A stretch of 64,000 bases of DNA, taken from NCBI GenBank assembly GCA_039193795.1, contig JBCCWI010000005.1:3657-67656 (forward strand), written 5' to 3'. The notes below the pieces were generated by a model. The model had not been told where the DNA came from. It saw only the letters and a list, made by a program, of their open reading frames with translations, and searched no databases. Shown one piece after another: positions 1,409 through 15,183 of the stretch. The position numbers and the translations under genes were made by a program. Source of the DNA: Actinomycetota bacterium (lineage in GTDB: Bacteria; Actinomycetota; Acidimicrobiia; Acidimicrobiales; Aldehydirespiratoraceae). Each line of letters opens with the position of its first letter. Within the stretch, counting starts at the first letter, position 1.

Positions 1409-4400
1409 CGGCGCTCTTCCCATGCCTCGGCTTCGAGGATCGCGGACTCGAGCGTCGCCCGAGCTTCGGGCGTGGCGTCCCACATGTCGCGCTGATCGGC
1501 TTCGAGGAGCCGTTCCGCGATCGACCGGAGCGCCCACGGATTGGACTCCTCGAAGAAGGCCTTCATCTCGGCATCGCCGACATAGGCCTCGGTGACCCGT
1601 TCGTACATCCAGTCCTCCACGACCTTGGCGGTGGCGTCGTAGCCGAAGAGATAGTCGACGGTGGCGGCGAGCTCGAACGCGCCCTTGTAGCCGTGCCGCT
1701 GCATGGCGCCGATCCACTTCGGGTTCAGCACGCGGCTGCGCACGACACGGGCGGCCTCCTCGGCCAACGTCCGAACCTTGGGGTTGGCCGGGTCGGCCGA
1801 GTCGCCGAACCACGCTTTGGGTTCGCGACCACTCAGCGCCCGGACCGCCGCGACCATGCCGCCGTGATCCTGGAGATAGTCGTCCGAGTCGAAGATGTCG
1901 TGCTCACGGTTGTCCTGATTCTTGACCGCCACCTCGATGGCGGCGAAACGGCGGCGCATCGCCTCCGGTTCAGAGGTGCCGAACCGGTCCCGTCCGTAGG
2001 CGAAGCCCGACCACGCGAGATACACCTCGGCCAGGTCGGCGTCGCTGCGCCAGTCGCGGGATTCGAGCACGGGGAGGATGCCCGAACCGTAGCCACCCGG
2101 CGGCGGCCCGTAGATACGAGCGTCGGCCACGCCAACGGCGGCGATCGGGTTCTGTTCGATCGGTTCATCGAGCGCGGCCACCATGGCCACGGCATCGTCG
2201 AGCAGTGCGATGACGTGGGGGAACGCATCGCGGAAGAACCCCGAGATGCGCAGGGTGACGTCGACTCTGGGTCGACCGAGCTCGGCGAGCGGAATCACCT
2301 CGAGCCCGACGACCCGCCCGCTCTCGTCGTTCCACTGCGGACGGACCCCCAGGAGCGCCAACGCTTCGGCGGCGTCGTCGCCGGTGGTCCGCATGGCCGC
2401 CGTGCCCCAGAGCACGAGACCGACCGTCGTCGGCGCTTCGCCCGTCTCGTCGACATGCTTCTCGACGAGACGTTCCGCCAACGACGACCCGACCTGCCAG
2501 GCCAGCGGCGACGGAATCGCCTTCGGGTCGACCGAGTAGAAGTTGCGGCCGGTCGGGAGCACATGGGCGCCCCCGCGGCTGGGCGCACCGCTCGGCCCGG
2601 CGGGTACGTACCGGCCTTCGAGCATGCGCAGCAGGTTGTCGATCTCGTCGGTCGTCTGTTCGAGCGATGGCACCAGCCGGGCAGCGACCCAGCGGAGGGT
2701 CGGATCGTCGGTCGAAGTCGAGTCCCAGCCGGTCGCCGCCAACGCCTCGACACGGGCACGACACTCGGCCTCGATGCGGTCGACACCGACCCGGTCGGCC
2801 GTGTCGAGGTCGAGGCCCAAGTCGGCAGCCACGGTCGCTCGTAGCGCCGGCACCGACCCCTGGGGCAGCCGGGTGACGGCCAGAGCGGTCTCGACGAGCG
2901 TGTCGCCTTCGGGCCCGCGGCCCAACAGGTGGAGGCCACCCCGGATCTGTGCGTCCTTCAAGGCGCAGAGGTAGCCGTCGACATGGAGGATCATGTCGTC
3001 GAAGTCGTCGGCGTCATCGGGGGCCGCATCCCCGAGTTCGAGATCGCGGTGGATCTCGGTCGAGACCAGCAGTTCCCACACCTGATCTCGGATCGCTGGC
3101 AGCTTGCCCGGGTCCATCGCCTCGTACTGGGCGTAGGCGTCGAGGAGCTGCTCGAGGCGGGCGACGTCGTCGTAGACGTCGGCCCGGGTGAGCGGCGGTG
3201 GCAGATGGTCGATGACGATGGCGTGGGTCCGCCGCTTGGCCTGCGTGCCCTCCCCGGGATCGTTGACGACGAACGGGTAGGCGAGCGGCAGGTCGCCGAG
3301 CGCGGCGTCGGGGAAACAGCTTCCCGAGAGCGCCAGCGCCTTGCCCGGCAGCCACTCGAGGGTGCCGTGCTTGCCGAGGTGCACCATCGCGTCGGCGCCC
3401 CACCCACCCTCCTCGGCGGACGCTGCGAGCCAGCGGTAGAACGCCAGGTAGTGATGGGGCGGCGGCATGTCGGGTGCGTGATAGGTGCCGATCGGATCCG
3501 GCCCGAACCCGCGGGGTGGCTGGATGGTCACCAGCACGCCGCCCAGATCGAGGCCCGGGAACACCAGCTCGCCGCCGTGGTGATACACCTCGCCGGGGGC
3601 CGGGCCCCACAGCGCTTCGACCTCGGATCGAGCGTCATCGGGAAGCCCGGAGAACCAGGACGTGTACGCGTCGGCATCGAGTCGCCCCGGCGCGTTGGCC
3701 AGCTGTTCGTCGCTGAGCGTCGGGAGGTCGTAGGTGAGCTTGTCGGCCAACTCGGCCATCAGGGCATCGCCGTCCTCGGGAATCCGGTCGACCCGGTGCC
3801 CGGCGCGGGCAAGCGCGTGGAGCAGATCGACAGCGGAGGCCGGCGTGTCGAGACCGACTGCGTTTCCGAGCCGACTCCGCTTGGTCGGGTAGGCCGACAG
3901 CACGAGGACGACACGGCGATCCGCAGGAGGTGTTCTCCGCAGTCGGGCATGCCGCACCGCGAGCCCGGCGAGACGCTCGGTTCGGTCGGCATCGGTCCGG
4001 GTGGCGACGATCTCCCCTCCCTGCTCGGCATCGTCGTCGACGATCTCCTTGAAGGCGAACGTCGGACCGATGATCCGGCCGTCGAACTCGGGGATCGCCA
4101 CGCCCATGCCGACGTCGACCGGTGACAGGCCGGCGTCATCCTCGGCCCATGCGGCCGCGGAGCGGCTCGACGCAGGAGCCTGGATGACCGGCACGTCGAG
4201 CTCCGCGAGCATCGGCACCTCCCACTGATCGCCGTCCTCGCCCGCCGTCGCGCCGGCGGCGAAGATCGATGTGATCACCGCATCGACCCGGTGTTCGATG
4301 CAGAGCCCGAGGGCCGGTACCTCGCCGGCGTCGTCGAGACGGAGCGAGTAGGTGAAGATCGGCAATGCGTCGCCGCCCTTGGCCTCGATTGCGTCGCACA

Positions 4401-4956
4401 GGTCGGCGACATAGGTCGTGTTCCCGGCGACGAGGTGGGCCCGGTAGAAGATGACGGCCACCAAGGGCCGATCGGCGTTGCGGGCCGCGTCCGGCCGACC
4501 GAGGCCGGCGCCGTCCCACACGCCCGTGCGGGGCAGCTCGACCGGCGGTTCGAAACCGAACCCGGTGAACAGCATCGTGTCCGAAACGAAGCGGAAGAGT
4601 TGGCCGATGTTCCCCGGGCCGCCGGCGACGAGGTAGCCGTGGGCCTCGGCCACGACCCCGGCGGGCGCGGTCGATCGCTCCGCCAGCTCCGCGTCGGGGA
4701 TCGCTTCGCCACCGACCGCCAGCACGGGGATCGAGGCGTCGGCGGCGGCCGCCAGCAACTCCTCGAACGCGCCCTCCCACGCCTTGGCTCCTCCGAGCAA
4801 GCGGACGATCATCACGTCGACCCCGGCGAGTGACGGTGCGGTGTCGAGCCGGTCGGGATTCGCCCACCGCACCGCACCGAAGCCCTCGGGCAGATCGTCG
4901 ACGGCGGAACGAGCCGCCAGCAGCTCGGTGTCGGCGTTGGAGAGGAAGAGGATCAT
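1405..4956 (-). CDS. cobN: Cobaltochelatase subunit CobN
   Basis: ORF 1405..4992 carries HLGKHGTLEWLPGK, LPTGRNFYSVDP, RISGFFRDAFP and KNQDNREHDIFDSDDY. Start placed at ATG 4956 (MILFLSNADTEL), with AAGGA upstream. Confidence 0.96.
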   Translation of the reverse strand: MILFLSNADTELLAARSAVDDLPEGFGAVRWANPDRLDTAPSLAGVDVMIVRLLGGAKAWEGAFEELLAAAADASIPVLAVGGEAIPDAELAERSTAPAGVVAEAHGYLVAGGPGNIGQLFRFVSDTMLFTGFGFEPPVELPRTGVWDGAGLGRPDAARNADRPLVAVIFYRAHLVAGNTTYVADLCDAIEAKGGDALPIFTYSLRLDDAGEVPALGLCIEHRVDAVITSIFAAGATAGEDGDQWEVPMLAELDVPVIQAPASSRSAAAWAEDDAGLSPVDVGMGVAIPEFDGRIIGPTFAFKEIVDDDAEQGGEIVATRTDADRTERLAGLAVRHARLRRTPPADRRVVLVLSAYPTKRSRLGNAVGLDTPASAVDLLHALARAGHRVDRIPEDGDALMAELADKLTYDLPTLSDEQLANAPGRLDADAYTSWFSGLPDDARSEVEALWGPAPGEVYHHGGELVFPGLDLGGVLVTIQPPRGFGPDPIGTYHAPDMPPPHHYLAFYRWLAASAEEGGWGADAMVHLGKHGTLEWLPGKALALSGSCFPDAALGDLPLAYPFVVNDPGEGTQAKRRTHAIVIDHLPPPLTRADVYDDVARLEQLLDAYAQYEAMDPGKLPAIRDQVWELLVSTEIHRDLELGDAAPDDADDFDDMILHVDGYLCALKDAQIRGGLHLLGRGPEGDTLVETALAVTRLPQGSVPALRATVAADLGLDLDTADRVGVDRIEAECRARVEALAATGWDSTSTDDPTLRWVAARLVPSLEQTTDEIDNLLRMLEGRYVPAGPSGAPSRGGAHVLPTGRNFYSVDPKAIPSPLAWQVGSSLAERLVEKHVDETGEAPTTVGLVLWGTAAMRTTGDDAAEALALLGVRPQWNDESGRVVGLEVIPLAELGRPRVDVTLRISGFFRDAFPHVIALLDDAVAMVAALDEPIEQNPIAAVGVADARIYGPPPGGYGSGILPVLESRDWRSDADLAEVYLAWSGFAYGRDRFGTSEPEAMRRRFAAIEVAVKNQDNREHDIFDSDDYLQDHGGMVAAVRALSGREPKAWFGDSADPANPKVRTLAEEAARVVRSRVLNPKWIGAMQRHGYKGAFELAATVDYLFGYDATAKVVEDWMYERVTEAYVGDAEMKAFFEESNPWALRSIAERLLEADQRDMWDATPEARATLESAILEAEAWEERR

Positions 4957-4978
4957 GTGGGGCGTCCTTGGATGGAGG

Positions 4979-6502
4979 TCATCGGCATTCACCGATCAAC
5001 CGGTAGAGCGCGGGCAGGTCGAGTGACGCGGCGAGATGATCGGCCAACCGGTCGAGCTCGGCCTCGCGATGGGTGGCGGGCGTGACGGCTCCGGGCGCGA
5101 ACGACGATCCCGAGCGTGCGGCGACCTGCCGCAGGAACGCGTGGCGGAACTCGTCCTCGTCGAACAGGCCGTGCAGTGTCGTACCGAACACGGCACCGGC
5201 CCGGAATCCCTCGGGTTCGCCGTCGAGCACGAGCCACGGTTCGTCGCTTGCATCACCGTCGGGGCGCACCCGGCCGTGATGGATCTGGTAGCCGACGATC
5301 GGGTGTCCGAGTGCGTGGCCCCGCCGACAGGCGAGCACCTTGTCGGCGGCGAAGGAGGTCGAAACGGGGAGTGCACCGAGGCCGTCGACGGCACCGGCCC
5401 GACTCTCGACGTCGTCGTCGATGTGGCGGCCGAGCATCTGGTAGCCGCCGCAGATCCCGAGCACCGTGGTGGTCGACGGCAGGTCGGTGATCGCTCGATC
5501 GAAGCCGCGATCACGCATCCAACGGAGGTCGTCGACCGTCGCCTTCGATCCCGGGATGATGACGAGGTCGGGTACCCCGAGCTCGCGGGCGGAGCGCACG
5601 AACCGCACGTCGACGTCGTCCTCGAGGGCCAGTGCATCGACATCGGTGAAGTTCGAGATGCGGGGCAACCGGATCACGGCGACATCGAGCGACGCCGATG
5701 CGTCGGACTCCGGCAATCGGTCGAGGGCGAGCGAGTCCTCGGCGTCGAGGCGGAGCGACTCCAGCATCGGAACCACGCCAAGCGTCGGGATCCCGGTGAG
5801 CGCCTCGAGCTGATCGGTGCCGTCGAGCAGCAGTGCGGGGTCGCCGCGGAGCTTGTTGATCACGAACGCTTTGATGCAGGCGGCCAGGTGCTCGGGCAGC
5901 ACGCCGACGGTTCCGTAGAGCGAGGCGAACACGCCGCCCGGATCGATGTCACCGACCACGATGGCGGGGAGGCCCGCGGCTTCGGCCAGGCGGAGGTTGA
6001 CGATGTCGTTGGCGAGCAGGTTGATCTCCGCAGGCGAGCCGGCGCCTTCGACCAGCACGACGTCGAACCTCGACCGCAGGTCGGCGAGTGCATCGAGCAC
6101 CATCTCGAACAGTTCGGGCTTGGCCGAGTGGTACGCCTGGGCGCTCATCGTCGCGTACGGCTTGCCGAGCACCACGACCTGACTCTCGCGCTCGCCGGTC
6201 GGCTTCAGGAGCACGGGATTCATCGCGACCTCGGGCTCGACGCCGGCCGCCTGGGCCTGCAGGTACTGAGCCCGCCCGATCTCGTGGCCGGAGGTGGTGA
6301 CGGCGGAGTTGAGCGCCATGTTCTGTGCTTTGAAGGGCGCCACCCGAACACCCGAGCGGGCGAGGAGACGGCACATGCCGGCGACCAACGTGGTCTTGCC
6401 CGAGTCCGAGGTCGTGCCGCACACCATCAACGCGCCGCGTTCGGGCGGGATGGCGTCGGCGTCGGCCGAACGGGGATGGAGCTCGGGTTCGTTGCGATCC
6501 AT
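4979..6502 (-). CDS. cobQ: Cobyric acid synthase
   Basis: GTTSDSGKT, PFKAQNMALNS, EGAGSPAEINL, RISNFTD and GICGGYQMLG motifs. Confidence 0.96.
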   Translation of the reverse strand: MDRNEPELHPRSADADAIPPERGALMVCGTTSDSGKTTLVAGMCRLLARSGVRVAPFKAQNMALNSAVTTSGHEIGRAQYLQAQAAGVEPEVAMNPVLLKPTGERESQVVVLGKPYATMSAQAYHSAKPELFEMVLDALADLRSRFDVVLVEGAGSPAEINLLANDIVNLRLAEAAGLPAIVVGDIDPGGVFASLYGTVGVLPEHLAACIKAFVINKLRGDPALLLDGTDQLEALTGIPTLGVVPMLESLRLDAEDSLALDRLPESDASASLDVAVIRLPRISNFTDVDALALEDDVDVRFVRSARELGVPDLVIIPGSKATVDDLRWMRDRGFDRAITDLPSTTTVLGICGGYQMLGRHIDDDVESRAGAVDGLGALPVSTSFAADKVLACRRGHALGHPIVGYQIHHGRVRPDGDASDEPWLVLDGEPEGFRAGAVFGTTLHGLFDEDEFRHAFLRQVAARSGSSFAPGAVTPATHREAELDRLADHLAASLDLPALYRLIGECR

Positions 6503-6529
6503 CCTCGTGGCTCGTCTGTCGGCAATGCG

Positions 6530-6640
6530 GGATCCGGCTGGCGATCTGGCTCCGAACGATCCGGTGCCGGCGTCGCCGACGATCGTTCGTCACAGTTGCG
6601 GGACAGCTCCGGATTCGCACCGGATTCCCCACCCGAGATG
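6530..6640 (-). ncRNA. Cobalamin (B12) riboswitch
   Basis: Minus strand reads GGGAATCCGGTGCGAATCCGGAGCTGTCCCGCAACTGT...GAGCCAGA, the conserved B12-element core, directly upstream of cobQ. Confidence 0.92.
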
Positions 6641-6646
6641 GCGCTG

Positions 6647-6652
6647 AGTATA
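6647..6652 (-). promoter_or_regulatory. -10 box (TATACT) for the riboswitch-cobQ transcript
   Basis: Near-consensus TATACT just 5' of the riboswitch. Confidence 0.55.
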
Positions 6653-6722
6653 CCGATCGGCGGCCGCCCGCCTTCATGGCCGTCGGTCGCCAAATCCCCT
6701 GATCTGGGTCACACTTGCCGCC

Positions 6723-7244
6723 ATGGCGCGTCGATCGATCGTTCTCATCAACACCGGCGAAGGCAAGGGGAAGTCCTCGTCCGCATTCGGCGTGATGTCG
6801 CGAGGGTGGGCTCGGGGTTGGAACGTGGGCGTCGTGCAGTTCGTGAAGGGCGGGAAGTGGAAGATCGGCGAACGCAAGCTCGCCGACCATCTCGACATCG
6901 AATGGCACACCCTCGGCGACGGCTTCACCTGGGAATCCACGGACATGGACGAGACCGTCGCGAAGGGCCGGCACGCATGGGGCGTCGCCAAGGACAAGCT
7001 TCAGAGCGGCGACTACCAGTTGCTGATCCTCGACGAAGTCACCTACACGATGAAGTACGGCTGGGTCGACGTCGCAGAGGTCGTCGAGGCGGTCCAGAAC
7101 CGGGCCGAGGGCACCAATGTGGTGATCACCGGGCGCTACGCGCCCCAGGAACTCATCGACATCGCCGACACGGTCACCGAGATGCGCAAGGTCAAACACG
7201 CCTATGACCAGGGAATCAAGGCGATGAAGGGCATCGAGTACTGA
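6723..7244 (+). CDS. cobO: Cob(I)yrinic acid a,c-diamide adenosyltransferase
   Basis: NTGEGKGKSSSAFG, VVQFVKG, ILDEV, VITGRYAP and KGIEY. Confidence 0.95.
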   Translation: MARRSIVLINTGEGKGKSSSAFGVMSRGWARGWNVGVVQFVKGGKWKIGERKLADHLDIEWHTLGDGFTWESTDMDETVAKGRHAWGVAKDKLQSGDYQLLILDEVTYTMKYGWVDVAEVVEAVQNRAEGTNVVITGRYAPQELIDIADTVTEMRKVKHAYDQGIKAMKGIEY

Positions 7245-7277
7245 GTCCGGGCCGGACATCGAGACTCGCCTTCCACC

Positions 7278-8624
7278 ATGACCACCCTCGGCCCTCGCCT
7301 GGTCGTCGCCGGCACCCACTCCGGGGTCGGCAAGACCACGATCGCGACCGGGCTGATGGTCGCCCTGCGTCGAGCCGGCCACACGGTCGCGTCGGCCAAG
7401 GTCGGGCCGGACTTCATCGATCCCGGCTACCACTCGCTGGCTACGGGACGGCCGCCGCGCAACCTCGATGCGTGGATGAGCGGGCTCGAACTGATCGGGC
7501 CACTGGCCGCTCGCGCCGGCACCGACGCCGACATCACGATCATCGAGGGGGTGATGGGCCTCTTCGACGGCGCGAACGACGGATCACCCTCCTCGACCGC
7601 CGACATCGCCATCGAACTCGATGCACCGGTCGCCCTCGTGGTCGACGGCTCATCGATGAGCAGTTCGGTGGCTGCGTTGGTTCAGGGGTACCGGGACCAC
7701 CGGCCCGAACTCCGATTCGCCGGGGTGATCCTCAATCGGGTCTCGACGGAACGACACCGAACCCTGCTGATCGAAGCGCTGGCGGCCATCGACGTTCCCG
7801 TGCTGGGCACGATCGCACGCGACGACGCGATGACGTGGCGCGACCGCCACCTCGGACTCGTGCCCGTCGACGAGCAGCCCGACGAGGTGCGGGCCTCGCT
7901 CGAGCGGCTGGGCGGAGCCGTGGGCGACGGATGCGACCTCGAGCGCGTGATGGCGATCGCCACCGCTGCGCCCGGGCGCACGGTCGACGCACCCCAGACC
8001 CCCGCACCCGGGTCGCCGGTGCCCATCGCGGTTGCGGGAGGACCAGCCTTCACGTTCCAGTACCGCGACAACATCGAGGCGCTTCAGGCGGCCGGGGCCG
8101 AGCTCCTTCCCTTCGATCCACTCGTCGATGAGCACCTTCCCGACGGCGTCGCCGGGCTCATCATCGGTGGGGGGTTCCCCGAGGTCTTCGCGCCTCGTCT
8201 CGCGGACAACCGCCGGCTGCTCGACGAGGTGGCGCACGCCGTCGGCGACGGACTCATCACCTGGGCGGAGTGTGGTGGTCTCCTGTGGCTGAGTCGATCA
8301 CTCGATGATCGCTCCATGGCCGGAGTGATCCCCGCCCGGACCACGATGAGCGATCGGCTCACGCTCGGATACCGCACCGCAACCGCCGCGACCGACACGC
8401 CACTCGCTCTGGCGGGGTCGGTGCTGCGAGGTCACGAATTCCACTACTCGGTCTGCGAGCCCGGAGGCGATGCGCTGCAGCTCACGTCGCGCTTCGACAT
8501 GCGTTCGGAGGGATTCGGTTCGCCGACGATGCTCGCGACCTATCTCCATCAGCATCTCGCCGCAGCTCCCGAGCGGGCGGAGCGGTTCGTCCAGTCCTGC
8601 CGAGAGGCCGACCGACACCGCTGA
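7278..8624 (+). CDS. cobB: Cobyrinate a,c-diamide synthase (CobB/CbiA)
   Basis: SGVGKTT, KVGPDFIDP, EGVMGLFDG, GGGFPE, AECGG and GHEFHYS. Confidence 0.95.
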   Translation: MTTLGPRLVVAGTHSGVGKTTIATGLMVALRRAGHTVASAKVGPDFIDPGYHSLATGRPPRNLDAWMSGLELIGPLAARAGTDADITIIEGVMGLFDGANDGSPSSTADIAIELDAPVALVVDGSSMSSSVAALVQGYRDHRPELRFAGVILNRVSTERHRTLLIEALAAIDVPVLGTIARDDAMTWRDRHLGLVPVDEQPDEVRASLERLGGAVGDGCDLERVMAIATAAPGRTVDAPQTPAPGSPVPIAVAGGPAFTFQYRDNIEALQAAGAELLPFDPLVDEHLPDGVAGLIIGGGFPEVFAPRLADNRRLLDEVAHAVGDGLITWAECGGLLWLSRSLDDRSMAGVIPARTTMSDRLTLGYRTATAATDTPLALAGSVLRGHEFHYSVCEPGGDALQLTSRFDMRSEGFGSPTMLATYLHQHLAAAPERAERFVQSCREADRHR

Positions 8625-8657
8625 TCCGTCGTGACAACGACCGAAGCCGACGCGTTA

Positions 8658-8678
8658 CCCTACGTCATGCCCTACGTC
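8658..8678 (+). promoter_or_regulatory. 9-bp direct repeat CCCTACGTC x2, candidate RHH operator
   Basis: Exact repeat at 8658-8666 and 8670-8678 in the 76-bp gap before the RHH-fusion gene. It overlaps a TACCCT -10-like hexamer at 8656-8661. Confidence 0.45.
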
Positions 8679-8700
8679 TGGATCGCAGGGCCTGACCACC

Positions 8701-9600
8701 ATGCGCAAGACCTCCGTCTACCTCCCCGATCGGCTCAAAGAACGTCTCGCCGCGCTCGCCGGCCATCTCGACGTGTCCGAAGCCGAACTCATCCGCGAAG
8801 CCATCGAGGCACGACTCGAGGAGCCCGGGATCGCACCGACCCCGCGCCCCGATCCCGCGATGCCCGGCCGCTTCGTCGGCGTCGGCGTCGGCCCCGGGCC
8901 AACCGACCTCGTCACCGTGCGCGCCATCGAGGCACTGCGCCGGGCCGACCGTGTCTTCGCGCCATGCACCTCGCTGGAGGCGGTCGGACGAGCCGAAGCG
9001 ATCGTCCGGGAGGCGGCGCCCGATATCGTCGTCGAACGGCTGGTGTTCGTGATGCAACCGGACCACGACGCCCGGGCAGATGCCCTGGTCGCCGTCTGCG
9101 ACCGGATCACCGAGCACCTGAACGCCGGTGAAGAGGTCGCCTTCATCACCCTCGGCGATCCCAACCTGTATTCGACCGTCTCCTCGGTGGTCGCCGGCGT
9201 TCGAGCCCGTCGCCCGAACACCGTCGTCGAGACGGTCGCCGGCATCATGGCCTTCCAGGCGCTCGCGGCCGAAGGCGGCGTCGTGCTCACCGATGAGCAG
9301 CAGAGCATCGTGCTGTTGCCGGCGAGCGTCGACGCCGAACTGATCGACGTCGAACTCGAGCGGCCGGATCGCACCGTCATCCTCTACAAGGGAGGCGGCC
9401 GGCTCGCCGCGGTCGCCGACCAACTCGAAGCGACCGGCCGGCTCGACGACGCCGTGCTGGGCGAACTCGTCGGGATGCCCGGCGAGCGGATCACCGCAGT
9501 GGCGGCGGTTCGCGATCAACCGGCGTCCTACCTCAGCACCGTCATCGCGCCGGCCCCCGAAGGCGTCGGACCGACACCGGGCATTGCGGAGGGCGCGTGA
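8701..9600 (+). CDS. cobI: Precorrin-2 C20-methyltransferase (CobI/CbiL) with N-terminal ribbon-helix-helix (CopG-like) domain
   Basis: N-terminus MRKTSVYLPDRLKERLAALAGHLDVSEAELIREAIE fits the RHH pattern, followed by GVGVGPGPTDLVT and FITLGDPNLYST (tetrapyrrole methylase). Confidence 0.88.
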   Translation: MRKTSVYLPDRLKERLAALAGHLDVSEAELIREAIEARLEEPGIAPTPRPDPAMPGRFVGVGVGPGPTDLVTVRAIEALRRADRVFAPCTSLEAVGRAEAIVREAAPDIVVERLVFVMQPDHDARADALVAVCDRITEHLNAGEEVAFITLGDPNLYSTVSSVVAGVRARRPNTVVETVAGIMAFQALAAEGGVVLTDEQQSIVLLPASVDAELIDVELERPDRTVILYKGGGRLAAVADQLEATGRLDDAVLGELVGMPGERITAVAAVRDQPASYLSTVIAPAPEGVGPTPGIAEGA

Positions 9601-10415
9601 CCGGCCGCATCTCGTTCGTGGGCGCCGGTCCGGGCGCCGACGACCTCGTGACCCTGCGCGGCGCGCGGCGTCTCGCTGACGCCGACATCGTGATCTGGGC
9701 CTCGTCGCTGGTACCCGCATCGATGTTGGATCACTGCCGCGAGGACGCCGTTCGGCACGACTCCGCCGTGATGACGCTCGAGGACGTCCTCGCGGTCTTC
9801 GACGCCAACCCGGACGCAGCGATCGTCCGTCTGCACTCGGGCGACCCGAGCGTGTATGGGGCGATCCAGGAGCAGATCGATTGGTGCCACTCCCACGGCC
9901 GAGCGTTCGAGGTCGTCCCCGGCGTCACCTCGGTCGCCGGCGCCGCCGCCGAGATTCGCCGGGAACTGACGATTCCCCAGCGCGGCCAGGCACTCGTCTA
10001 CACCCGGCTCGCCGGCCGCACCAAGGCGTCGATGCGGCCCGGCGAGGACGTGGGTGCGTTCACCCCCAACGGAACGACGATGGCGGTCTTCCTCTCCGGC
10101 GCGAGACCCGACGAGCTGCAGGCCGAACTCCTCCGGGACGGCTCGGCCTACACCGAGGACACGCCGGCCGTCGTCCTCGTTCGGGTCACCTGGCCCGACC
10201 AGCAGATCGTGCACACGACCGTCGGCGAACTCGCCGACGCCATCCGGTCGACCGGGGCGACGATGACCGTGCTCGTCTTGGTGGGTGACGTCCTCGAGGA
10301 CACGCCGGTGTCCGCCCGAAGCCACCTCTACGCCCCCGACTACACGACCGCCTACCGCCTGCGTTCCGTCGACGGCTCGACCCAGGGGCGAGCCAGCAAG
10401 CGGCGGACCAACTGA
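9597..10415 (+). CDS. cobM: Precorrin-4 C11-methyltransferase (CobM/CbiF)
   Basis: FVGAGPGADDL, RLHSGDPSVYGAIQEQ, ELTIP and RSHLY. Confidence 0.93.
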   Translation: MTGRISFVGAGPGADDLVTLRGARRLADADIVIWASSLVPASMLDHCREDAVRHDSAVMTLEDVLAVFDANPDAAIVRLHSGDPSVYGAIQEQIDWCHSHGRAFEVVPGVTSVAGAAAEIRRELTIPQRGQALVYTRLAGRTKASMRPGEDVGAFTPNGTTMAVFLSGARPDELQAELLRDGSAYTEDTPAVVLVRVTWPDQQIVHTTVGELADAIRSTGATMTVLVLVGDVLEDTPVSARSHLYAPDYTTAYRLRSVDGSTQGRASKRRTN

Positions 10416-10419
10416 CGTC

Positions 10420-11520
10420 ATGGGCACCACCGAGCCGGAGCTCTCGCCGGATGTCGCCAATGCGAAGGGGCTTCGCACCGGCTGGACCACGGGAACCTGC
10501 GCGTCCGCAGCCGCGAAAGCAGCGACCCGGTGGCTGGTCGACGGCACAGCACCCGACGAGGTGGAGGTCGCGCTCCCGAGCGGGGAGCGCGTGCGGTTTC
10601 CCACGGCCGACATCGATCCCGCCACCCCCTTCCGGGTCGCGGTGGTGAAAGACGCCGGCGACGACCCCGACTGCACCGACGGCGCCCACATCACGGCGAC
10701 CGTCGAGTGGGCCACCGACGGGATCGATCCGGTGGCCCTTCGGGGCGGCCACGGGGTGGGTCAGGTCACGAAGTCGGGCCTCGGGCTGGAGGTGGGGGGA
10801 CCAGCGATCAACCCGGTGCCGGCCAGGATGATCCGCCAGGCGATCGCCGAGGTGACCGATCGGCCGCTCGTCTGCACCATCTCGGTTCCCGGCGGCGAGC
10901 AGATGGCGGCGAAGACGTCCAACGCCCGGCTCGGTATCGAAGGCGGGATCTCCATCCTCGGCACGACCGGCATCGTCAAGCCGTTCTCCACCGCGAGCTA
11001 CCGAGCGAGCATCGTGCAACAGATCGACGTCGCCGCCGCCCAGGCCGCCGAGGTGGTCGTGCTGGCGACCGGCTCGCGCACCGACGACTGGGCTCAACGC
11101 ACCTGGCCCGACGTGCCACCGGTGGCGTTCGTCGAGGTCGGCGACTTCACCGGCATCGCGCTTCGGCGGGCGGCGGGGGCCGGGATCGGTACGATCCGCT
11201 TCGTCGGTATGGCCGGCAAGATCGCCAAGCTGGCAGCGGGGGTCATGATGACCCACTTCCATCGCAGCAAGGTCGACACCGAGCTCCTCGCCACCGTGGC
11301 CACAGACACGCATGCACCCCCCACGATCGTCGCTGCCGCCACCGAGACGAACACGGCCCGCCACTTCGCCGAACGCTGCATGGACGAAGGGGTACCCGCA
11401 CCGTTGGAACGTCTCTGCGAGCTGGCGGTGGCCAACTGTCGATCCCATGCCGGTGGCGATCTCGAGGTCGAAGTCGTCATGGTCGACTTCGACGGGATCG
11501 AGGAGCTGGCCCGTGCCTGA
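10420..11520 (+). CDS. cbiD: Cobalt-precorrin-5B C1-methyltransferase
   Basis: LRTGWTTGTCA, KDAGDDPDCT, PAINPVP and RLGIEGGISILGTTGIVKPFS. Start placed at ATG 10420. Confidence 0.95.
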   Translation: MGTTEPELSPDVANAKGLRTGWTTGTCASAAAKAATRWLVDGTAPDEVEVALPSGERVRFPTADIDPATPFRVAVVKDAGDDPDCTDGAHITATVEWATDGIDPVALRGGHGVGQVTKSGLGLEVGGPAINPVPARMIRQAIAEVTDRPLVCTISVPGGEQMAAKTSNARLGIEGGISILGTTGIVKPFSTASYRASIVQQIDVAAAQAAEVVVLATGSRTDDWAQRTWPDVPPVAFVEVGDFTGIALRRAAGAGIGTIRFVGMAGKIAKLAAGVMMTHFHRSKVDTELLATVATDTHAPPTIVAAATETNTARHFAERCMDEGVPAPLERLCELAVANCRSHAGGDLEVEVVMVDFDGIEELARA

Positions 11521-12715
11521 CACTGCGCCGATCGCCGTCGTGGGCCTGGTCGGCGGCGCATGGTTCGGCGTCGGCGCCGAGCGGGCGATCCGCGACGCGG
11601 ACGTGGTCGTCGGTGCCCGTCGCCACCTCGACGACCTTGCGGCCGACATCGAAGAACCGACCGAGTCCGTCGAGCTCGCCGGGCCACTCGACCAGCTACT
11701 CGACCTCGTCGCCGAGCGGTTCGCCGCCGGCCAACGCATCACGCTGCTCGCGAGCGGCGATCCCGGGTTCTTCGGGATCGAGCGACTGCTCGTCGGTCGA
11801 TTCGGCGACGCCGTCGACATCCACCCGGCTCCCTCATCGATCGCCCTGGCCTTCGCCCGGGCTCGGCTGCCGTGGGACGACGCCGCCGTCGTCTCCGCCC
11901 ACGGACGCTCCCTCGACCTCGCGCTCCCGCACATCCTCGATGCGCCGAAGGTCGCAGTGCTCGTTTCCGCGTCGACGCCGCCCGAAGCGATCGGCCGCGC
12001 CCTCGTGAGCGCCGGTGCGCCGCACCGCCACGCCATCGTGTGTTCGCGGCTCGGCGATCGAGACGAGACCGTCGTTCGCACGGACCTCGACGGCCTGGCG
12101 GCCGGCACGTTCGATCCGCTGTCGGTCGTGATCCTCACGACCGAGCCTGACCCCGTCGCACCGGAGGCGGCGCTCGAGTGGGGACGCCCGACGTCGGCCT
12201 ACCGACACCGGGCGAGCATGATCACCAAGCCCGAGGTCCGGGCCGCCGCGCTCAGCGCACTCGACCTCTTCGGGGCGGCCGTGATGTGGGATGTCGGCTC
12301 GTCGAGCGGCAGCGTCGCGATCGAAGCGGCCCGCCTCGCCCCGGGGTGTCGTGTATTCGCGATCGAGCGCGAACCCGCCGACGCCGAACGCATCCGTCAG
12401 AACGCAGGGAGGGTGGCCGTGAGTGTCGTCGAGGGCGCGGCGCCCGGGGCCTTCGCCGACCTGCCCGACCCGGATCGGGTGTTCGTGGGTGGCGGCGGCA
12501 TCGACGTCGTCGAGGCCGCCCTCGCGCGGATGCGGCCGAGCGGCATCCTCGCCGCCACGTTCGCCACGATCGACAACGCAGCCGCTGCGTCCCGCCTCGT
12601 CGGGGAGTCCGGTCGGATGGTGCAGATCGCCGTCAACCGAGCCGTGCCGATCGGCCCCGATCGAGCGCTGCGCTTCGAAGCCGACAACCCCGTGTTCCTG
12701 GTGGTGAGCCGATGA
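11513..12715 (+). CDS. cbiE: Precorrin-6Y C5,15-methyltransferase (CbiE-CbiT fusion, CobL-like)
   Basis: LLASGDPGFFGI, VVSAHGR, MITKPEVR, WDVGSSSGSVAIE and PDRVFVGGG. GTG start at 11513. Confidence 0.92.
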   Translation: MPDTAPIAVVGLVGGAWFGVGAERAIRDADVVVGARRHLDDLAADIEEPTESVELAGPLDQLLDLVAERFAAGQRITLLASGDPGFFGIERLLVGRFGDAVDIHPAPSSIALAFARARLPWDDAAVVSAHGRSLDLALPHILDAPKVAVLVSASTPPEAIGRALVSAGAPHRHAIVCSRLGDRDETVVRTDLDGLAAGTFDPLSVVILTTEPDPVAPEAALEWGRPTSAYRHRASMITKPEVRAAALSALDLFGAAVMWDVGSSSGSVAIEAARLAPGCRVFAIEREPADAERIRQNAGRVAVSVVEGAAPGAFADLPDPDRVFVGGGGIDVVEAALARMRPSGILAATFATIDNAAAASRLVGESGRMVQIAVNRAVPIGPDRALRFEADNPVFLVVSR

Positions 12716-14370
12716 CCGACACCATCGTGAGCGTCTCGATCACCGACGCGGGTCGACGCATCGCCCACCAGCTGCCGTTCGAGCACAGCCACGGCGATCT
12801 CGGCGAAACGGTCCGAGCCCGGTGGAACGACGTCGACGGGCTCGTTCTCGTCGCGGCCACCGGGATCGCCGTCCGGGTGATCGCCCCCTTGCTCACCGAC
12901 AAGGACGACGGGCCCTTCGTCGTCGCGGTCGACGACACGGGACGTTTCGCCGTGCCGCTCTGCGGTGGACACCGCGGCGCAAACGACACCGCCGAGCAGA
13001 TCGCCTCCCTCATCCAGGCCGAGGCCGTGATCACGACCGCGACCGACCGCCACGCGGTCGTCGCGCTCGACACCCTTCCTGGTGTCACGACCCACGGCGA
13101 CGTCGCGGCGGTCACGCGCGCGATCCTCGACGGCGAGCCGGTCGAGATCGACAACCCGCTCGGTTGGCCACTCCCCGACGCGCTCCCGGAATCCACGCCT
13201 GGCGCGCCCTGTCGGATCACGGTCACCGACCTCGCTCGCGATCCGGCGCCGGGCGAGGTGGTCCTCCATCCTCCGAGCCTCGTCCTCGGCGTCGGCGCCG
13301 CTTCGAACGCGGCCAGCGACGCTGCGTCGGCGCTGGTCGCCGACGCGATGGCCGAGCATGGTCTGGCCGAAGCATCGGTCGCGATGGTCGCCACGATCGA
13401 CCGACGCGAGGCCGACCCGGTCATCACGTCGCTCGGGCACCCGATCGTCTCCTTCCGCAACACCGATCTGTCCGATGTGGCCGTCCCGAACCCGAGCGAG
13501 GTGGTGCGGGCCGAGGTCGGCACCGCATCGGTGGCCGAGGCGGCCGCGCTGCTGGCCGCAGGGCCCGGCGCCGAGCTCGTGAGCGAGAAGCGCAAAGGGC
13601 CCGAAGCCACCCTTGCGATCGCTCGACGCCGTCGCCCGCTCGGCGAGGTCCGGGTCGTCGGGCTCGGCCCAGGGCACGCGCGACATCGCACGGCCGAGGC
13701 CGTCACTGCGATCCGGTCGGCCGATGTGGCGATCGGTTACCGCCTCTACGTCGATCAGTGCGAGGACCTCCTCTCACCGCGCCAGCGCATCATCCGCAGC
13801 CCGATCGGTGCCGAGGTCGACCGGTGCACCGAGGCCGTCCAACTCGCCAGCGAGGGGGCGACCGTGGCACTGGTGTGTTCGGGGGACTCCGGGGTGTTCG
13901 CCATGGCGACGCTGGCCCTGGAAGTGGCGCCGCGGCTCGGGAACCCGCCGATCCACGTCGTCGCCGGCGTGACGGCGAGCCTCGCCGCCGCGTCGATCCT
14001 CGGTGCGCCCCTCGCCCACGACCATGCCCTCATCAGCCTGTCGGATCTCATGACCCCGTGGCCGCTGATCGAGCGCCGGGTCCAAGCGATCGCCGAAGCC
14101 GACATGGCGGTGGCCTTCTACAACCCCCGGTCGCAGCGTCGCACCGAGCAGCTCGTTCGCGCCCACGAGATCCTGCTCCAGCACCGTCCGGACACGACGC
14201 CCGTGGGCGTGGTGGTCAACGCGACCCGCCCCACCGAGTCGGTGATGATCACCACCCTCGCCGACTTCGATCCGGCGAGCGTCGACATGTTCTCCATCGT
14301 GATCGTCGGCTCGTCCACCACCGAGATGCTCAACGGAAGGATGGTGACACCCCGTGGCTACGAATCGTGA
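12712..14370 (+). CDS. cobJ: CbiG-CobJ(CbiH) fusion: cobalt-precorrin-5A hydrolase plus precorrin-3B C17-methyltransferase
   Basis: CbiG motifs (GIAVRVIAP, GGHRGAN, VITTATD, SVAEAAAL) followed by VVGLGPG, SGDSGVFAMA, ISLSDLMTPW, YNPRSQRR and MVTPRGY. Confidence 0.93.
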   Translation: MTDTIVSVSITDAGRRIAHQLPFEHSHGDLGETVRARWNDVDGLVLVAATGIAVRVIAPLLTDKDDGPFVVAVDDTGRFAVPLCGGHRGANDTAEQIASLIQAEAVITTATDRHAVVALDTLPGVTTHGDVAAVTRAILDGEPVEIDNPLGWPLPDALPESTPGAPCRITVTDLARDPAPGEVVLHPPSLVLGVGAASNAASDAASALVADAMAEHGLAEASVAMVATIDRREADPVITSLGHPIVSFRNTDLSDVAVPNPSEVVRAEVGTASVAEAAALLAAGPGAELVSEKRKGPEATLAIARRRRPLGEVRVVGLGPGHARHRTAEAVTAIRSADVAIGYRLYVDQCEDLLSPRQRIIRSPIGAEVDRCTEAVQLASEGATVALVCSGDSGVFAMATLALEVAPRLGNPPIHVVAGVTASLAAASILGAPLAHDHALISLSDLMTPWPLIERRVQAIAEADMAVAFYNPRSQRRTEQLVRAHEILLQHRPDTTPVGVVVNATRPTESVMITTLADFDPASVDMFSIVIVGSSTTEMLNGRMVTPRGYES

Positions 14371-14578
14371 CCTCGTCGGTCCCACCACGGTCCGCATCGA
14401 CGACCGCTGCACCGCCTGCGGCAGCTGCCTGATCACCTGTGCGCCGCGAGCCCTCGTCCGAGCGCCGAAAAAGCCGCTGGTGATCGACGACCGGTGCACC
14501 GCCTGCGGAGCCTGCGTCGAGATCTGCCCGGTCGGCGCCATCGACGAGTTCGCCCTCGTGCCGAGAGGACGGGCGTGA
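14354..14578 (+). CDS. 2x[4Fe-4S] ferredoxin
   Basis: Two CxxCxxCxxxC motifs (CTACGSCLITC and CTACGACVEICP). Confidence 0.9.
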   Translation: MATNRDLVGPTTVRIDDRCTACGSCLITCAPRALVRAPKKPLVIDDRCTACGACVEICPVGAIDEFALVPRGRA

Positions 14579-15183
14579 GCGAGATCCACCCCATCGAGGT
14601 CGAGAGCTACCGGATCCTCGCCGAACGCGTGGACCTCTCGCACCGGACGCCGATCGATCGCTCGATCATCGAGCGAATGATCCACGCCACGGCCGATCTG
14701 TCGTTCGCCGACACCGCCCGCATCGGCGCCGGTGCGGGTGATGCACTGGTGACGGCCGTGATCTCCGGCGCGCCGGTCATCGTGGACGCGGCGATGGTCG
14801 CGGCCGGCATCACCCGCCACCCGACCCGCTGCTACCTGCCCGAGGTACCGGTGGCGCCCGAGGGCTCGACCCGCAGCGCAGCGGCCTTCCGACTGGCGGC
14901 CGAGGCGCACCCGTCGGGTGCGGTCTTCGTGTGCGGCAACGCGCCGACCGCGCTGTTCGAGCTGCTCCGTCTCCACGAGGCCGGGATGGTCGAGCCCGCC
15001 GCGGTCGTCGGGCTTCCGGTCGGATTCGTCGGTGCCAAGGAATCCAAGGCGGCGCTGTGGGCGAGCTCGCTCGCTGCCATCAGCGTCACCAATGAGGGAG
15101 AACGGGGCGGCAGCCCGGCCGCAGCAGGGGCATTCAACGCTGCGGTCCGTCACGCCGCTCGAGCTGGGGAGGAGTCGCCATGA
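14575..15183 (+). CDS. cobH: Precorrin-8X methylmutase (CobH/CbiC)
   Basis: HPIEVESYRI, RMIHATAD, TRSAAA, GNAPTALF, GLPVGFVGAKESK and GGSPAAA. GTG start at 14575. Confidence 0.94.
   Translation: MSEIHPIEVESYRILAERVDLSHRTPIDRSIIERMIHATADLSFADTARIGAGAGDALVTAVISGAPVIVDAAMVAAGITRHPTRCYLPEVPVAPEGSTRSAAAFRLAAEAHPSGAVFVCGNAPTALFELLRLHEAGMVEPAAVVGLPVGFVGAKESKAALWASSLAAISVTNEGERGGSPAAAGAFNAAVRHAARAGEESP

What the first reader, a model, noticed from the sequence alone, without database searches (positions are those of the whole stretch)
8631..9600. Ribbon-helix-helix DNA-binding domain fused to the precorrin-2 methyltransferase, with a direct repeat in its upstream gap
Seen: the first ~40 aa (MRKTSVYLPDRLKERLAALAGHLDVSEAELIREAIE) have the beta-strand/helix/helix pattern of CopG/MetJ/NikR-type RHH repressors and join an intact CobI/CbiL domain through a Pro-rich linker. 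The gene heads the tightly packed cobI-to-cobA run. The 76-bp gap upstream holds an exact CCCTACGTC repeat (12-bp period) overlapping a -10-like TACCCT. Known: RHH dimers bind short tandem sub-sites, tetrapyrrole methylases are dimers, and B12 genes are usually riboswitch-controlled. Inference: this is a trigger enzyme that autoregulates ring-synthesis genes in response to SAM/SAH or precorrin, analogous to PutA. I do not know of this being described for B12 synthesis.
Basis: partly seen in the sequence, partly recalled or inferred. Interest (0 to 1): 0.85.

Follow-up and report, generated by a model that had tools for sequence, protein, structure and literature searches.

The report
DNA-binding B12 enzyme with conserved operator
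A vitamin B12 pathway enzyme (CobI/CbiL) in a group of marine and soil actinobacteria carries a small DNA-binding domain, and a matching repeated DNA site sits at its own promoter, so the enzyme probably switches off its own operon, a control not found in print for B12 synthesis.

Summary
Window 8701-9600 (+) encodes a 299-aa protein with RHH_1 (res 4-41, 26.9 bits, cut-off 20.5), a Pro-rich linker and a full CobI/CbiL domain (TIGR01467, 186.9 bits, cut-off 163). CCCTACGTC is exact at 8658-8666 and 8670-8678.

The fusion is a conserved family in Acidimicrobiia. The window's pattern recurs just before the start codon in 28 of 39 distinct fused loci. Seven more have variant spacing or an inverted copy at the cobO promoter. 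None of 45 unfused loci has it.

The site is the only strong one in six genomes. It overlaps or abuts a TANNNT -10 placed for leaderless mRNA in 28 of 40. Unfused relatives instead carry a cobalamin riboswitch there: 14 of 45 by Rfam, 27 of 45 by nhmmer, against 0 of 40 fused.

Best reading: the enzyme is also an autorepressor of cobI-cobM-cbiD-cbiET-cbiGH-cbiC-cobA. DNA binding, the sign of regulation and any ligand response are inferred, not shown.

One correction: cobO and cobB precede the gene on the same strand. Nine literature searches found no description.

The parts
8656..8667 (+). Operator unit 1 (TACCCTACGTCA). It contains the -10-like TACCCT (8656-8661) and repeat copy 1, CCCTACGTC (8658-8666).
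   Evidence: The unit consensus T-R-CCCTAYGT comes from 29 instances.
8668..8679 (+). Operator unit 2 (TGCCCTACGTCT). It contains repeat copy 2, CCCTACGTC (8670-8678), and ends 22 nt before the ATG.
   Evidence: The tandem site is the only strong PWM hit in the 4.81-Mb genome: 34.0 bits against a next best of 16.4.
8701..9600 (+). The RHH-cobI/cbiL fusion gene (299 aa).
   Evidence: It is the only TIGR01467 hit over the cut-off in the genome.
8710..8823 (+). Ribbon-helix-helix domain (res 4-41): extended strand at about res 4-9, helices at 10-23 and 27-40.
   Evidence: Pfam RHH_1. AF2 secondary structure. The predicted homodimer interface includes res 1-10, 12-16, 19 and 27-39. The nearest solved relative is the VapB26 RHH, 5x3t, E 7.3e-6.
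8824..8865 (+). Pro-rich linker (res 42-55).
   Evidence: Low conservation, 0.45 against 0.72 for the RHH and 0.76 for the methylase. The pLDDT block for res 41-50 is 61.
8866..9555 (+). Precorrin-2 / cobalt-factor II C20-methyltransferase domain (res 56-285).
   Evidence: TIGR01467. Foldseek to CbiL 8xj3, E 4.7e-20, TMt 0.82. Of 69 columns at least 90% conserved in unfused CobI, 49 keep the same residue at 90% or more in fused proteins.
9597..15911 (+). Downstream genes presumably under the same promoter: cobM/cbiF 9597-10415; cbiD (within 10285-11520); cbiE/T (within 11312-12715); cbiG-cbiH fusion (within 12178-14370); cbiC 14494-15183; cobA 15180-15911.
   Evidence: Pfam. The order cobI-cobM-cbiD-cbiET is conserved in the related loci.
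6723..8624 (+). Upstream same-strand genes cobO (6723-7244) and cobB/cbiA (7278-8624). They are context, not shown to be part of the regulated unit.
6529..6629 (-). Cobalamin riboswitch aptamer that heads the divergent cobQ (6502..4979) and cobN (4992..1405) unit. Context only.
   Evidence: Rfam RF00174, 38.8 bits, gathering 31.5. Pfam.

Best explanation
The gene encodes a bifunctional protein. It is a normal CobI/CbiL methyltransferase, the first step that commits precorrin-2 or cobalt-factor II to the corrin branch (established pathway knowledge). Its N-terminal ribbon-helix-helix domain makes it a transcription factor for its own operon.

The two RHH domains of one methylase homodimer pair into one RHH2 DNA-reading module. 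Two such dimers sit on the two 12-bp units T-R-CCCTAYGT-NN. These units overlap or abut the -10 element of the cobI promoter. Binding blocks RNA polymerase, so cobI-cobM-cbiD-cbiET-cbiGH-cbiC-cobA is repressed by its own first product.

In this lineage the protein-operator pair stands where related Acidimicrobiia have a cobalamin riboswitch.

Shown here:
- the domain architecture and its conservation;
- the operator's conservation, its uniqueness in the genome and its position;
- its strict co-occurrence with the RHH domain;
- its exclusivity with the riboswitch at that place;
- a confident predicted dimer that uses both domains.

Inferred: DNA binding itself, repression rather than activation, and the stoichiometry.

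Open: whether occupancy of the methylase domain (SAM/SAH, precorrin-2 or factor II, their products) changes DNA binding, which would make it a true trigger enzyme like PutA, or whether it is a plain concentration-sensing negative feedback. I put about 0.45 on ligand control, given that it binds DNA.
For: (1) RHH_1 scores over the gathering cut-off and the CobI equivalog model over its cut-off, in one frame.

(2) The 120 best homologs listed of 1894 (285-335 aa, 57-87% identity) cover 90-100% of the query (118 of them at least 94%), and most carry PF01402+PF00590. In a 41-sequence alignment the RHH part is about as conserved as the enzyme part (0.72 against 0.76; linker 0.45). S5, Y7, L8, P9, L12, K13, R15, L16, S26, E27, A28 and R32 are at least 90% conserved.

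(3) An HMM of the RHH part hits the N-terminus of cobI in 40 of 40 fused loci. It hits nothing within the held DNA (up to 4 kb either side of cobI) in 0 of 45 unfused loci.

(4) A pattern taken from the window alone (CCCTACGT-N4-CCCTACGT) has at most 3 of 16 mismatches within 150 nt of the start in 28 of 39 distinct fused loci, at protein identities down to 43%. The 45 unfused loci have at least 4 mismatches, mostly 5-8. Three more fused loci have an 11-bp period and three a 10-bp period.

(5) L082 lacks a site at cobI but has an inverted pair, ACGTAGGG-N7-CCCTACGT, just upstream of cobO-cobB-RHHcobI. L049 has both kinds of site. No unfused locus has any unit pair in 329.5 kb.

(6) The site is unique. 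In G000 it scores 34.0 bits against a next best of 16.4. In 5 of 5 other genomes (3.2-6.7 Mb) the best match is the cobI site. The two other 1-mismatch hits lie inside or at the start of unrelated genes.

(7) A TANNNT hexamer lies 5-9 nt before the start codon in 28 of 40 fused genes (39 loci plus the window), against a background of 0.24%. It is usually the TACCCT of the proximal unit.

(8) A cobalamin riboswitch lies directly upstream on the same strand in 14 of 45 unfused loci by Rfam gathering and in 27 of 45 by an nhmmer profile, against 0 of 40 fused loci.

(9) The homodimer model scores ipSAE 0.87, 0.87 and 0.86 against a best control of 0.00. The mark was reached by 20 of 30 proteins solved as pairs and 1 of 23 solved as single chains. 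The runs agree in at least 88% of contacts, and the partner's pLDDT is at least 84. The interface includes both RHH residues and methylase residues.

(10) The nearest solved RHH is VapB26. Passages of PMC5737657 report that it binds its own promoter DNA as a homodimer and list DNA-perturbed residues including L12, K13, E27, A28 and R32. These same positions are conserved here.
Against: There is no direct evidence of DNA binding, of a transcription start or of expression.

In the window itself, and in its closest relative L002, the repeat ends 20-23 nt before the ATG and no TANNNT sits at the leaderless position. The promoter geometry seen in most orthologs therefore does not simply transfer. 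The consensus scan found no sigma-70-like promoter or terminator in 6400-9000.

cobO-cobB lie upstream on the same strand, so read-through transcription is possible.

The fused genes are mostly one clade: 37 of 40 on one side of the tree, with three label changes needed. The exclusivity with the riboswitch therefore rests on few independent events.

Two fused loci (L005, L083) show no site in the DNA held, and two (L003, L042) show only one good unit.

The PWM was built from the same loci it scores. Only the window-derived pattern count is free of that.

The dimer model may pass by likeness to solved CbiL and RHH dimers.

The closest standalone relatives of the RHH are antitoxin-like proteins of 70-84 aa.
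Confidence: 0.75

Rival explanations
1. The protein binds the same operator but acts as an activator (or as both activator and repressor) of the cobI promoter.
For: In the loci where a separate TANNNT follows the repeat (for example L020, L032-L034, L037, L066), the units cover roughly -41 to -19. An activator could sit there. From recall, some RHH proteins activate transcription.
Against: In the larger class the proximal unit is itself the -10 hexamer, TACCCT placed 6-8 nt before the start. That placement fits occlusion of the polymerase. From recall, most RHH regulators are repressors, and the nearest relative VapB26 is described as an autorepressor.
Confidence: 0.08
2. The repeat is a promoter element or the site of another factor, and the fused RHH serves something else, such as extra dimerisation, protein-protein contact, or another DNA or RNA target.
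For: No binding data exist. Two fused loci have no site in the DNA held. The RHH resembles antitoxin domains.
Against: The motif is present only where the RHH is present: 0 of 45 unfused loci have it. The unfused L052, nested among fused genes, has neither the RHH nor the motif. The motif moves with the promoter in L082 and L049. There is only one site per genome. Tandem or inverted short units about a helical turn apart are the usual form of RHH operators (recalled).
Confidence: 0.08
3. The RHH reading frame is not translated: the true start is the internal Met (MPGRFVG) and the upstream part is a leader.
For: An ATG exists at codon 54. Several database entries were called from later starts.
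Against: The Met is not conserved; the consensus there is PVPGRL. The upstream 40 codons are conserved at the protein level, with RHH_1 and family-HMM scores of 40-81 bits in 40 of 40 loci. The frame is open from the RHH start in all of them.
Confidence: 0.01
4. The repeat in the window is a chance duplication without function.
For: Taken alone it is only moderately rare: 99 of 20000 shuffles, and 1.9% of 76-nt windows.
Against: It is conserved across orthologs down to 43% protein identity while the flanks are not alignable.
Confidence: 0.01

Closest known systems
PutA (proline utilisation A) of enterobacteria, a trigger enzyme with an N-terminal RHH domain (recalled, not tested here)
   Same: One polypeptide holds an N-terminal ribbon-helix-helix domain and a metabolic enzyme. 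Its operator lies in its own control region, and the enzyme represses the genes of its own pathway.
   Different: PutA is catabolic, is a flavoenzyme, and switches by substrate-driven reduction and membrane binding. Here the enzyme is a biosynthetic SAM-dependent class III methyltransferase, no switch is known, and the regulon is a single site.
MetJ, NikR and CopG/Arc-type RHH repressors (recalled)
   Same: An RHH dimer reads short repeated units. In MetJ and NikR a small-molecule or metal-binding part tunes repression, and MetJ uses SAM as co-repressor.
   Different: Their effector parts are not enzymes of the regulated pathway. Here the partner domain is an intact CobI/CbiL.
VapB26 antitoxin RHH domain (PDB 5x3t)
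   Same: It is the closest solved sequence relative of res 1-49 (E 7.3e-6). It binds its own promoter as a homodimer, and the probe used contains CTACG (passages of PMC5737657).
   Different: VapB26 has a C-terminal toxin-binding tail and a PIN toxin partner. Here the tail is replaced by a linker and a methyltransferase, and the next gene is cobM.
CbiL/CobI precorrin-2 (cobalt-factor II) C20-methyltransferases (PDB 8xj3, 2e0k, 2qbu)
   Same: Same fold and family, same predicted homodimer, and the same place in the cob operon.
   Different: The solved and the unfused proteins match only res 51 onward of the query, so they lack the DNA-binding extension.
Cobalamin riboswitch (RF00174) control of cob operons
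   Same: It occupies the same position, directly upstream of cobI-cobM-cbiD, in related Acidimicrobiia. It presumably serves the same purpose, feedback control of ring synthesis.
   Different: It is an RNA that senses the end product. Here a protein made from the operon itself appears to do the job. The window keeps a riboswitch only for cobQ-cobN.

Membership tests
Ribbon-helix-helix (Pfam RHH_1, PF01402) | Profile match over the curated cut-off | tested here: met
   26.9 bits in the whole protein and 32.1 bits for res 1-53 alone, against a cut-off of 20.5.
Ribbon-helix-helix (Pfam RHH_1, PF01402) | Strand-helix-helix topology | tested here: met
   The AF2 model has res 4-9 extended and helices at 10-23 and 27-40, with block pLDDT of 81-85.
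Ribbon-helix-helix (Pfam RHH_1, PF01402) | Dimer through the paired N-terminal strands | tested here: met
   Model only. The homodimer ipSAE is 0.87 against a best control of 0.00, and the interface includes res 1-10, 12-16, 19 and 27-39. The pass may come from likeness to solved dimers.
Ribbon-helix-helix (Pfam RHH_1, PF01402) | Sequence-specific DNA binding | not testable with these tools
   Indirect only: a conserved repeated site co-occurs with the domain.
CobI/CbiL precorrin-2 C20-methyltransferase (TIGR01467) | Equivalog model over its cut-off across the full length | tested here: met
   186.9 bits against 163.25, model positions 1-229 of 230. It is the only such hit in the genome.
CobI/CbiL precorrin-2 C20-methyltransferase (TIGR01467) | CbiL fold | tested here: met
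   Foldseek gives 8xj3 at E 4.7e-20 with TMt 0.82, followed by 2e0k and 2qbu.
CobI/CbiL precorrin-2 C20-methyltransferase (TIGR01467) | Conserved family residues kept | tested here: met
   Of 69 columns at least 90% conserved in unfused proteins, 49 are the same at 90% or more in fused ones. The majority residue is the same in 68 of 69.
CobI/CbiL precorrin-2 C20-methyltransferase (TIGR01467) | C20 methylation activity | not testable with these tools
   Inferred from family membership, from its being the only copy, and from the complete operon.
Trigger enzymes (enzyme that is also a transcription factor, PutA type) | Enzyme and DNA-binding domain in one polypeptide | tested here: met
Trigger enzymes (enzyme that is also a transcription factor, PutA type) | Operator in the control region of its own pathway genes | tested here: met
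   By comparative genomics only.
Trigger enzymes (enzyme that is also a transcription factor, PutA type) | Switch between the two roles set by substrate, product or cofactor | not testable with these tools
   No fusion-specific residues in the methylase domain point to an effector.
Type II antitoxin (VapB-like) | C-terminal toxin-binding region and an adjacent toxin gene | tested here: not met
   After the RHH come a linker and the methylase, and the next gene is cobM. Only the RHH part resembles VapB26.
Riboswitch-controlled cobI operon | RF00174 directly upstream of cobI on the same strand | tested here: not met
   The only riboswitch in the window is at 6529-6629 on the minus strand. None of 40 fused loci has one there.

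The most novel reading that the evidence does not exclude
The enzyme at the branch point into corrin synthesis is itself the flux sensor. Occupancy of the CobI dimer by precorrin-2 or cobalt-factor II, or by SAM/SAH, changes how its two RHH domains pair or reach the DNA, so the ring-synthesis operon is induced by its own substrate or shut by its product. This protein switch replaced the B12 riboswitch at that promoter in a large clade of Acidimicrobiia. It would be the first trigger enzyme of tetrapyrrole or B12 biosynthesis.
Probability: 0.35. Interest if true: 0.85.

Novelty: new variant of a known kind. Interest (0 to 1): 0.78.

Why it matters
Control of B12 synthesis is generally ascribed to cobalamin riboswitches (recalled). 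Here a whole clade of environmental Actinomycetota seems to have put a protein switch, built into the first committed enzyme, in the place of the riboswitch.

If that is true, it adds a biosynthetic SAM-dependent methyltransferase to the short list of RHH trigger enzymes. It gives a clean natural case of an RNA sensor exchanged for a protein sensor at the same promoter. It also offers a compact, single-site regulator-operator pair that can be tested in vitro at once.

It also warns that the absence of a riboswitch upstream of cob genes does not mean that they are unregulated. This matters when B12 producers are predicted from metagenomes.

Tried and rejected
- Consensus promoter and terminator scan of 6400-9000: nothing found.
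- The repeat finder on 8560-8760 with a seed of 6 did not report the 9-nt repeat. The pattern search did.
- Earlier findings of this scan were not open to the session.
- RNA evidence: no RNA holder was listed for window 7800-9800, so no reads were laid and no transcription start could be sought.
- Longer fused forms: a search with res 1-50 among proteins of 525-2000 aa found none at E <= 0.001. The tool itself rates this as weak evidence.
- Other partners of this RHH subtype: a profile of 24 RHH parts against 1.84 billion representatives gave 2318 hits at E <= 0.001. The best 150 are mostly short standalone or cut proteins and fused proteins of about 290-320 aa. I scanned 20 of those 150, those of odd length, with Pfam. 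Thirteen are pieces of RHH+TP_methylase, and none shows a clear second partner over a cut-off.
- Two extra 1-mismatch sites in other genomes lie in or at the start of unrelated genes, an arylsulfotransferase and a tyrosine phosphatase, so I dropped them.
- Alignment A2 held two wrong-strand references (L003, L005). I discarded it and made A3 without them.
- Literature: nine full-text searches gave nothing on an RHH-CobI/CbiL fusion. PMC3493377 was read by passages and is unrelated. Supplements were not consulted. Subscription journals are not covered.
Full report
**What is in the window**

ORF 8701-9600 (+) gives a 299-aa protein, P0001. Pfam finds RHH_1 at res 4-41 (26.9 bits, gathering 20.5; 32.1 bits when the first 53 residues are scanned alone) and TP_methylase at res 58-265. 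NCBIfam's equivalog model for precorrin-2 C20-methyltransferase, TIGR01467, scores 186.9 bits against a cut-off of 163.25 over positions 1-229 of 230. The two parts are joined by the Pro-rich stretch EEPGIAPTPRPDPAMPGR.

The gap to the upstream gene is 76 nt. It holds CCCTACGTC exactly at 8658-8666 and 8670-8678, with TACCCT at 8656-8661. Alone, such a repeat is only moderately rare: it arises in 99 of 20000 dinucleotide shuffles of the gap and in 122 of 6393 windows of 76 nt.

**The surroundings**

On the plus strand the order is:
- cobO 6723-7244
- cobB/cbiA 7278-8624
- RHH-cobI 8701-9600
- cobM/cbiF 9597-10415 (overlaps the cobI stop)
- cbiD
- cbiE/T
- a cbiG-cbiH fusion
- cbiC 14494-15183
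- cobA 15180-15911

On the minus strand a cobalamin riboswitch (6629..6529, 38.8 bits) heads cobQ and cobN. No riboswitch reaches gathering on the plus strand. So the gene heads the packed cobI-to-cobA run but is not the first cob gene on its strand. It is the only hit over the TIGR01467 cut-off in the 4.81-Mb, 79.6%-complete genome.

**The fusion is a family, not an accident**

The 120 best database homologs listed of 1894 (285-335 aa, 57-87% identity) cover 90-100% of the query (118 of them at least 94%). Most carry PF01402+PF00590, and those with names come from Actinomycetota, Acidimicrobiia or Ilumatobacter.

In an alignment of 41 of them the RHH part is about as conserved as the enzyme part. 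The mean majority fraction is 0.72 for the RHH, 0.76 for the methylase and 0.45 for the linker. S5, Y7, L8, P9, L12, K13, R15, L16, S26, E27, A28 and R32 are at least 90% conserved. The Met of MPGRFVG is not conserved; the consensus is PVPGRL. That argues against an internal start.

A scan of one genome per species returned 80 loci, 79 of them titled Acidimicrobiia or unclassified Actinomycetota MAGs and one (L064) Solirubrobacteraceae. Together with the loci, this gave 40 loci with the RHH part (39 distinct, since L017 is the same contig as L002) and 45 without it. A family HMM of the RHH part hits the N-terminus of cobI in 40 of 40 fused loci. It hits nothing in six frames of the 45 unfused loci.

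Three Atlas clusters of 63-75 members carry TP_methylase with RHH_1 in 59-72% of members. The architecture is therefore visible to automatic annotation.

**The enzyme part looks ordinary**

Foldseek places the AF2 model (pLDDT 87.9) next to CbiL structures: 8xj3 at E 4.7e-20 with TMt 0.82, then 2e0k and 2qbu. Of 69 alignment columns at least 90% conserved in unfused CobI, 49 keep the same residue at 90% or more in the fused proteins, and 68 keep the same majority residue. No position is conserved only in the fused set.

**The repeat is conserved exactly where the RHH is present**

I took a pattern from the window alone, CCCTACGT-N4-CCCTACGT, with 16 specified bases. Within -150..+3 of the start codon, 28 of 39 distinct fused loci have at most 3 mismatches, at protein identities down to 43%. 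The 45 unfused loci, searched over -300..+30 on both strands, have at least 4 and mostly 5-8 mismatches.

The remaining 11 fused loci break down as follows:
- three have the two units 11 bp apart (L040, L047, L049);
- three have them 10 bp apart (L044, L070, L075);
- two have one good unit beside a degenerate one (L003, L042);
- one has no site at cobI but an inverted pair, ACGTAGGG-N7-CCCTACGT, just upstream of cobO, the first gene of its cobO-cobB-RHHcobI unit (L082);
- two show nothing in the DNA held (L005, L083).

L049 has both a site at cobI and an inverted pair before cobO. L036 has a palindromic form.

A search for any two units within 8-30 nt, with summed mismatches of at most 1 and in any orientation, finds such pairs in 24 of 39 fused loci and the window. 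It finds none in the 45 unfused loci.

The consensus from 29 instances is T-G-CCCTACGT-CG-T-A-CCCTACGT, 30.7 bits over 29 positions. That PWM was built from the loci it scores. Only its use on other DNA is informative: the maximum in 329.5 kb of unfused loci is 10.2 bits, and within fused loci the site is the only strong hit.

**One site per genome**

In the window's genome the site scores 34.0 bits and the next best scores 16.4. In five other genomes of 3.2-6.7 Mb the best match to the degenerate pattern (0-1 mismatch) is the cobI site in 5 of 5. The counts at 2 mismatches are similar to those of the reversed control pattern. The two other 1-mismatch hits lie inside an arylsulfotransferase gene and at the start of a tyrosine phosphatase gene.

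**Position**

A TANNNT hexamer ends 5-9 nt before the start codon in 28 of 40 fused genes (39 loci plus the window), against 0.24% at arbitrary positions. From recall, TANNNT is the actinobacterial -10 form, and this spacing is the signature of leaderless mRNAs.

In 18 of these loci the hexamer is the TACCCT of the proximal unit. In nine others a separate TAGGGT-like hexamer follows the repeat, which then covers the spacer and the -35 region. L051 and L065 fit the first class if the GTG two codons upstream is the start.

The window and L002 are exceptions. Their repeat ends 20-23 nt before the ATG with no such hexamer, so there the TACCCT at 8656-8661 may be the -10 of a short-leader transcript. 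This is unverified.

The gene upstream of the fused cobI varies: cobB on the same strand, divergent cobB, divergent cobA, a divergent riboswitch, or unrelated DNA. Downstream, cobM-cbiD-cbiET stays constant. That fits a promoter directly in front of the fused gene.

**Exchange with the riboswitch**

Rfam at gathering finds a cobalamin riboswitch directly upstream of cobI on the same strand in 14 of 45 unfused loci and in 0 of 40 fused loci. An nhmmer profile built from 11 of those riboswitches raises the unfused count to 27 of 45 and leaves the fused count at 0 of 40. Fused loci do have riboswitches nearby, but these serve other units: they are divergent in L028 and L031, and about 2 kb upstream in L017, L019, L042 and L047.

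**Phylogeny**

I built a tree of the methylase domain with 84 rows. One unfused row, shorter than 180 aa after trimming, and the duplicate L017 were left out. The tree puts 37 of 40 fused rows on one side of the midpoint root, with one unfused gene (L052) nested among them. L003, L042 and L005 sit next to two riboswitch-bearing genes. Three label changes are needed.

The association of the RHH, the operator and the missing riboswitch therefore rests on few independent events. L052, which lacks both the RHH and the units, and the relocated operators of L082 and L049 are the most independent pieces.

**Structure**

The AF2 model has an extended segment at res 4-9, helices at 10-23 and 27-40, a low-confidence linker and then the methylase fold.

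The two-copy model scores ipSAE 0.87, 0.87 and 0.86 against a best control of 0.00. The mark was reached by 20 of 30 proteins solved as pairs and 1 of 23 solved as single chains. The runs agree in at least 88% of contacts, and the partner's pLDDT is at least 84. The confident interface holds RHH residues (1-10, 12-16, 19, 27-39) as well as methylase residues (67-77, 153-210).

This suggests that one enzyme dimer carries one RHH2 module, so two dimers would fill the two units. The pass may reflect likeness to solved CbiL and RHH dimers. It supports binding but does not show it.

**Origin of the RHH**

The closest solved sequence is the RHH of the antitoxin VapB26 (5x3t, E 7.3e-6, res 1-49 against 1-47). 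Standalone relatives of 70-84 aa with 56-73% identity exist.

Passages of PMC5737657 report that VapB26 binds its own promoter as a homodimer, on a probe that contains CTACG. They list DNA-perturbed residues including L12, K13, E27, A28 and R32. These positions are conserved in the fusion family. The fusion lacks the antitoxin's toxin-binding tail and has no toxin neighbour, so it is not an antitoxin.

**Reading**

The best-supported explanation is a bifunctional CobI that represses its own promoter through a two-unit operator. It stands in for the riboswitch that related genomes have at that spot.

CobI acts at the branch point from precorrin-2 (pathway knowledge). A sensor there could report flux into the corrin branch, but nothing here shows a ligand effect. 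Activation instead of repression, another factor binding the repeat, and the other rivals are rated in their own section.

**Novelty**

Nine full-text searches found no description of an RHH-CobI/CbiL fusion or of a protein regulator of this kind for B12 synthesis. The library lacks most subscription journals, and supplements were closed.

I rate the finding as a new variant of a known kind: RHH trigger enzymes and autorepressors.

Noticed in passing
window 6529-6629 (-), with cobQ 6502..4979 and cobN 4992..1405: A cobalamin riboswitch aptamer (38.8 bits, partial model 46-168) heads the divergent cobQ-cobN unit. In this genome the late steps and the chelatase seem to be riboswitch-controlled, while the ring-methylation operon has the RHH site.
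   Followed up: partly
window 12178-14370 (+): One ORF carries CbiG_N, CbiG_C and a TP_methylase domain, a cbiG-cbiH fusion. The cluster mixes cbiD and cbiG, which I recall as markers of the early-cobalt route, with a CobN-type chelatase.
   Followed up: no
L082 about 2003-2027 and L049 about -1944 relative to cobI: An inverted pair of the same unit (ACGTAGGG-N7-CCCTAYGT) lies just upstream of cobO in two fused loci. In those genomes the protein may also control cobO-cobB.
   Followed up: partly
L036, -48 to -25 before the start: Here the site is palindromic (GCCCTACGTAGGGC followed by ACGTAGGG), which hints that each unit is a half-palindrome centred on TACGTA.
   Followed up: no
genomes G001-G015 (same genus as the window): A cobI match was found in only 2 of 15 other genomes of the genus, and only one of these (G004, E 2.9e-162) is a close match; the other (G003) is weak (E 1.2e-11, 27% identity). 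In the family the count is 6 of 36. B12 ring synthesis is therefore patchy among close relatives, though this search used one protein only.
   Followed up: no
L003, L042, L005 (fused loci near the base of the tree): These three have T instead of S at strand position 5 (VRKTTVYLP) and a degenerate operator or none. This is a possible case of protein-operator covariation.
   Followed up: no
proteins P0154 (363 aa) and P0168 (745 aa): This RHH subtype sits at res 61-103 of a 363-aa protein with no TP_methylase hit, and at res 184-225 of a 745-aa protein with a weak, distant TP_methylase hit. These may be miscalled genes or other architectures.
   Followed up: partly
unfused loci L091, L094, L080, L096, L062, L074, L095: They share the window's layout, with a riboswitch on the opposite strand about 2.1-2.9 kb upstream of cobI. 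L062 and L074 do have a riboswitch-like nhmmer hit directly upstream of cobI. The other five have neither an RHH nor a detected riboswitch there, so what controls their cobI operon is open.
   Followed up: no
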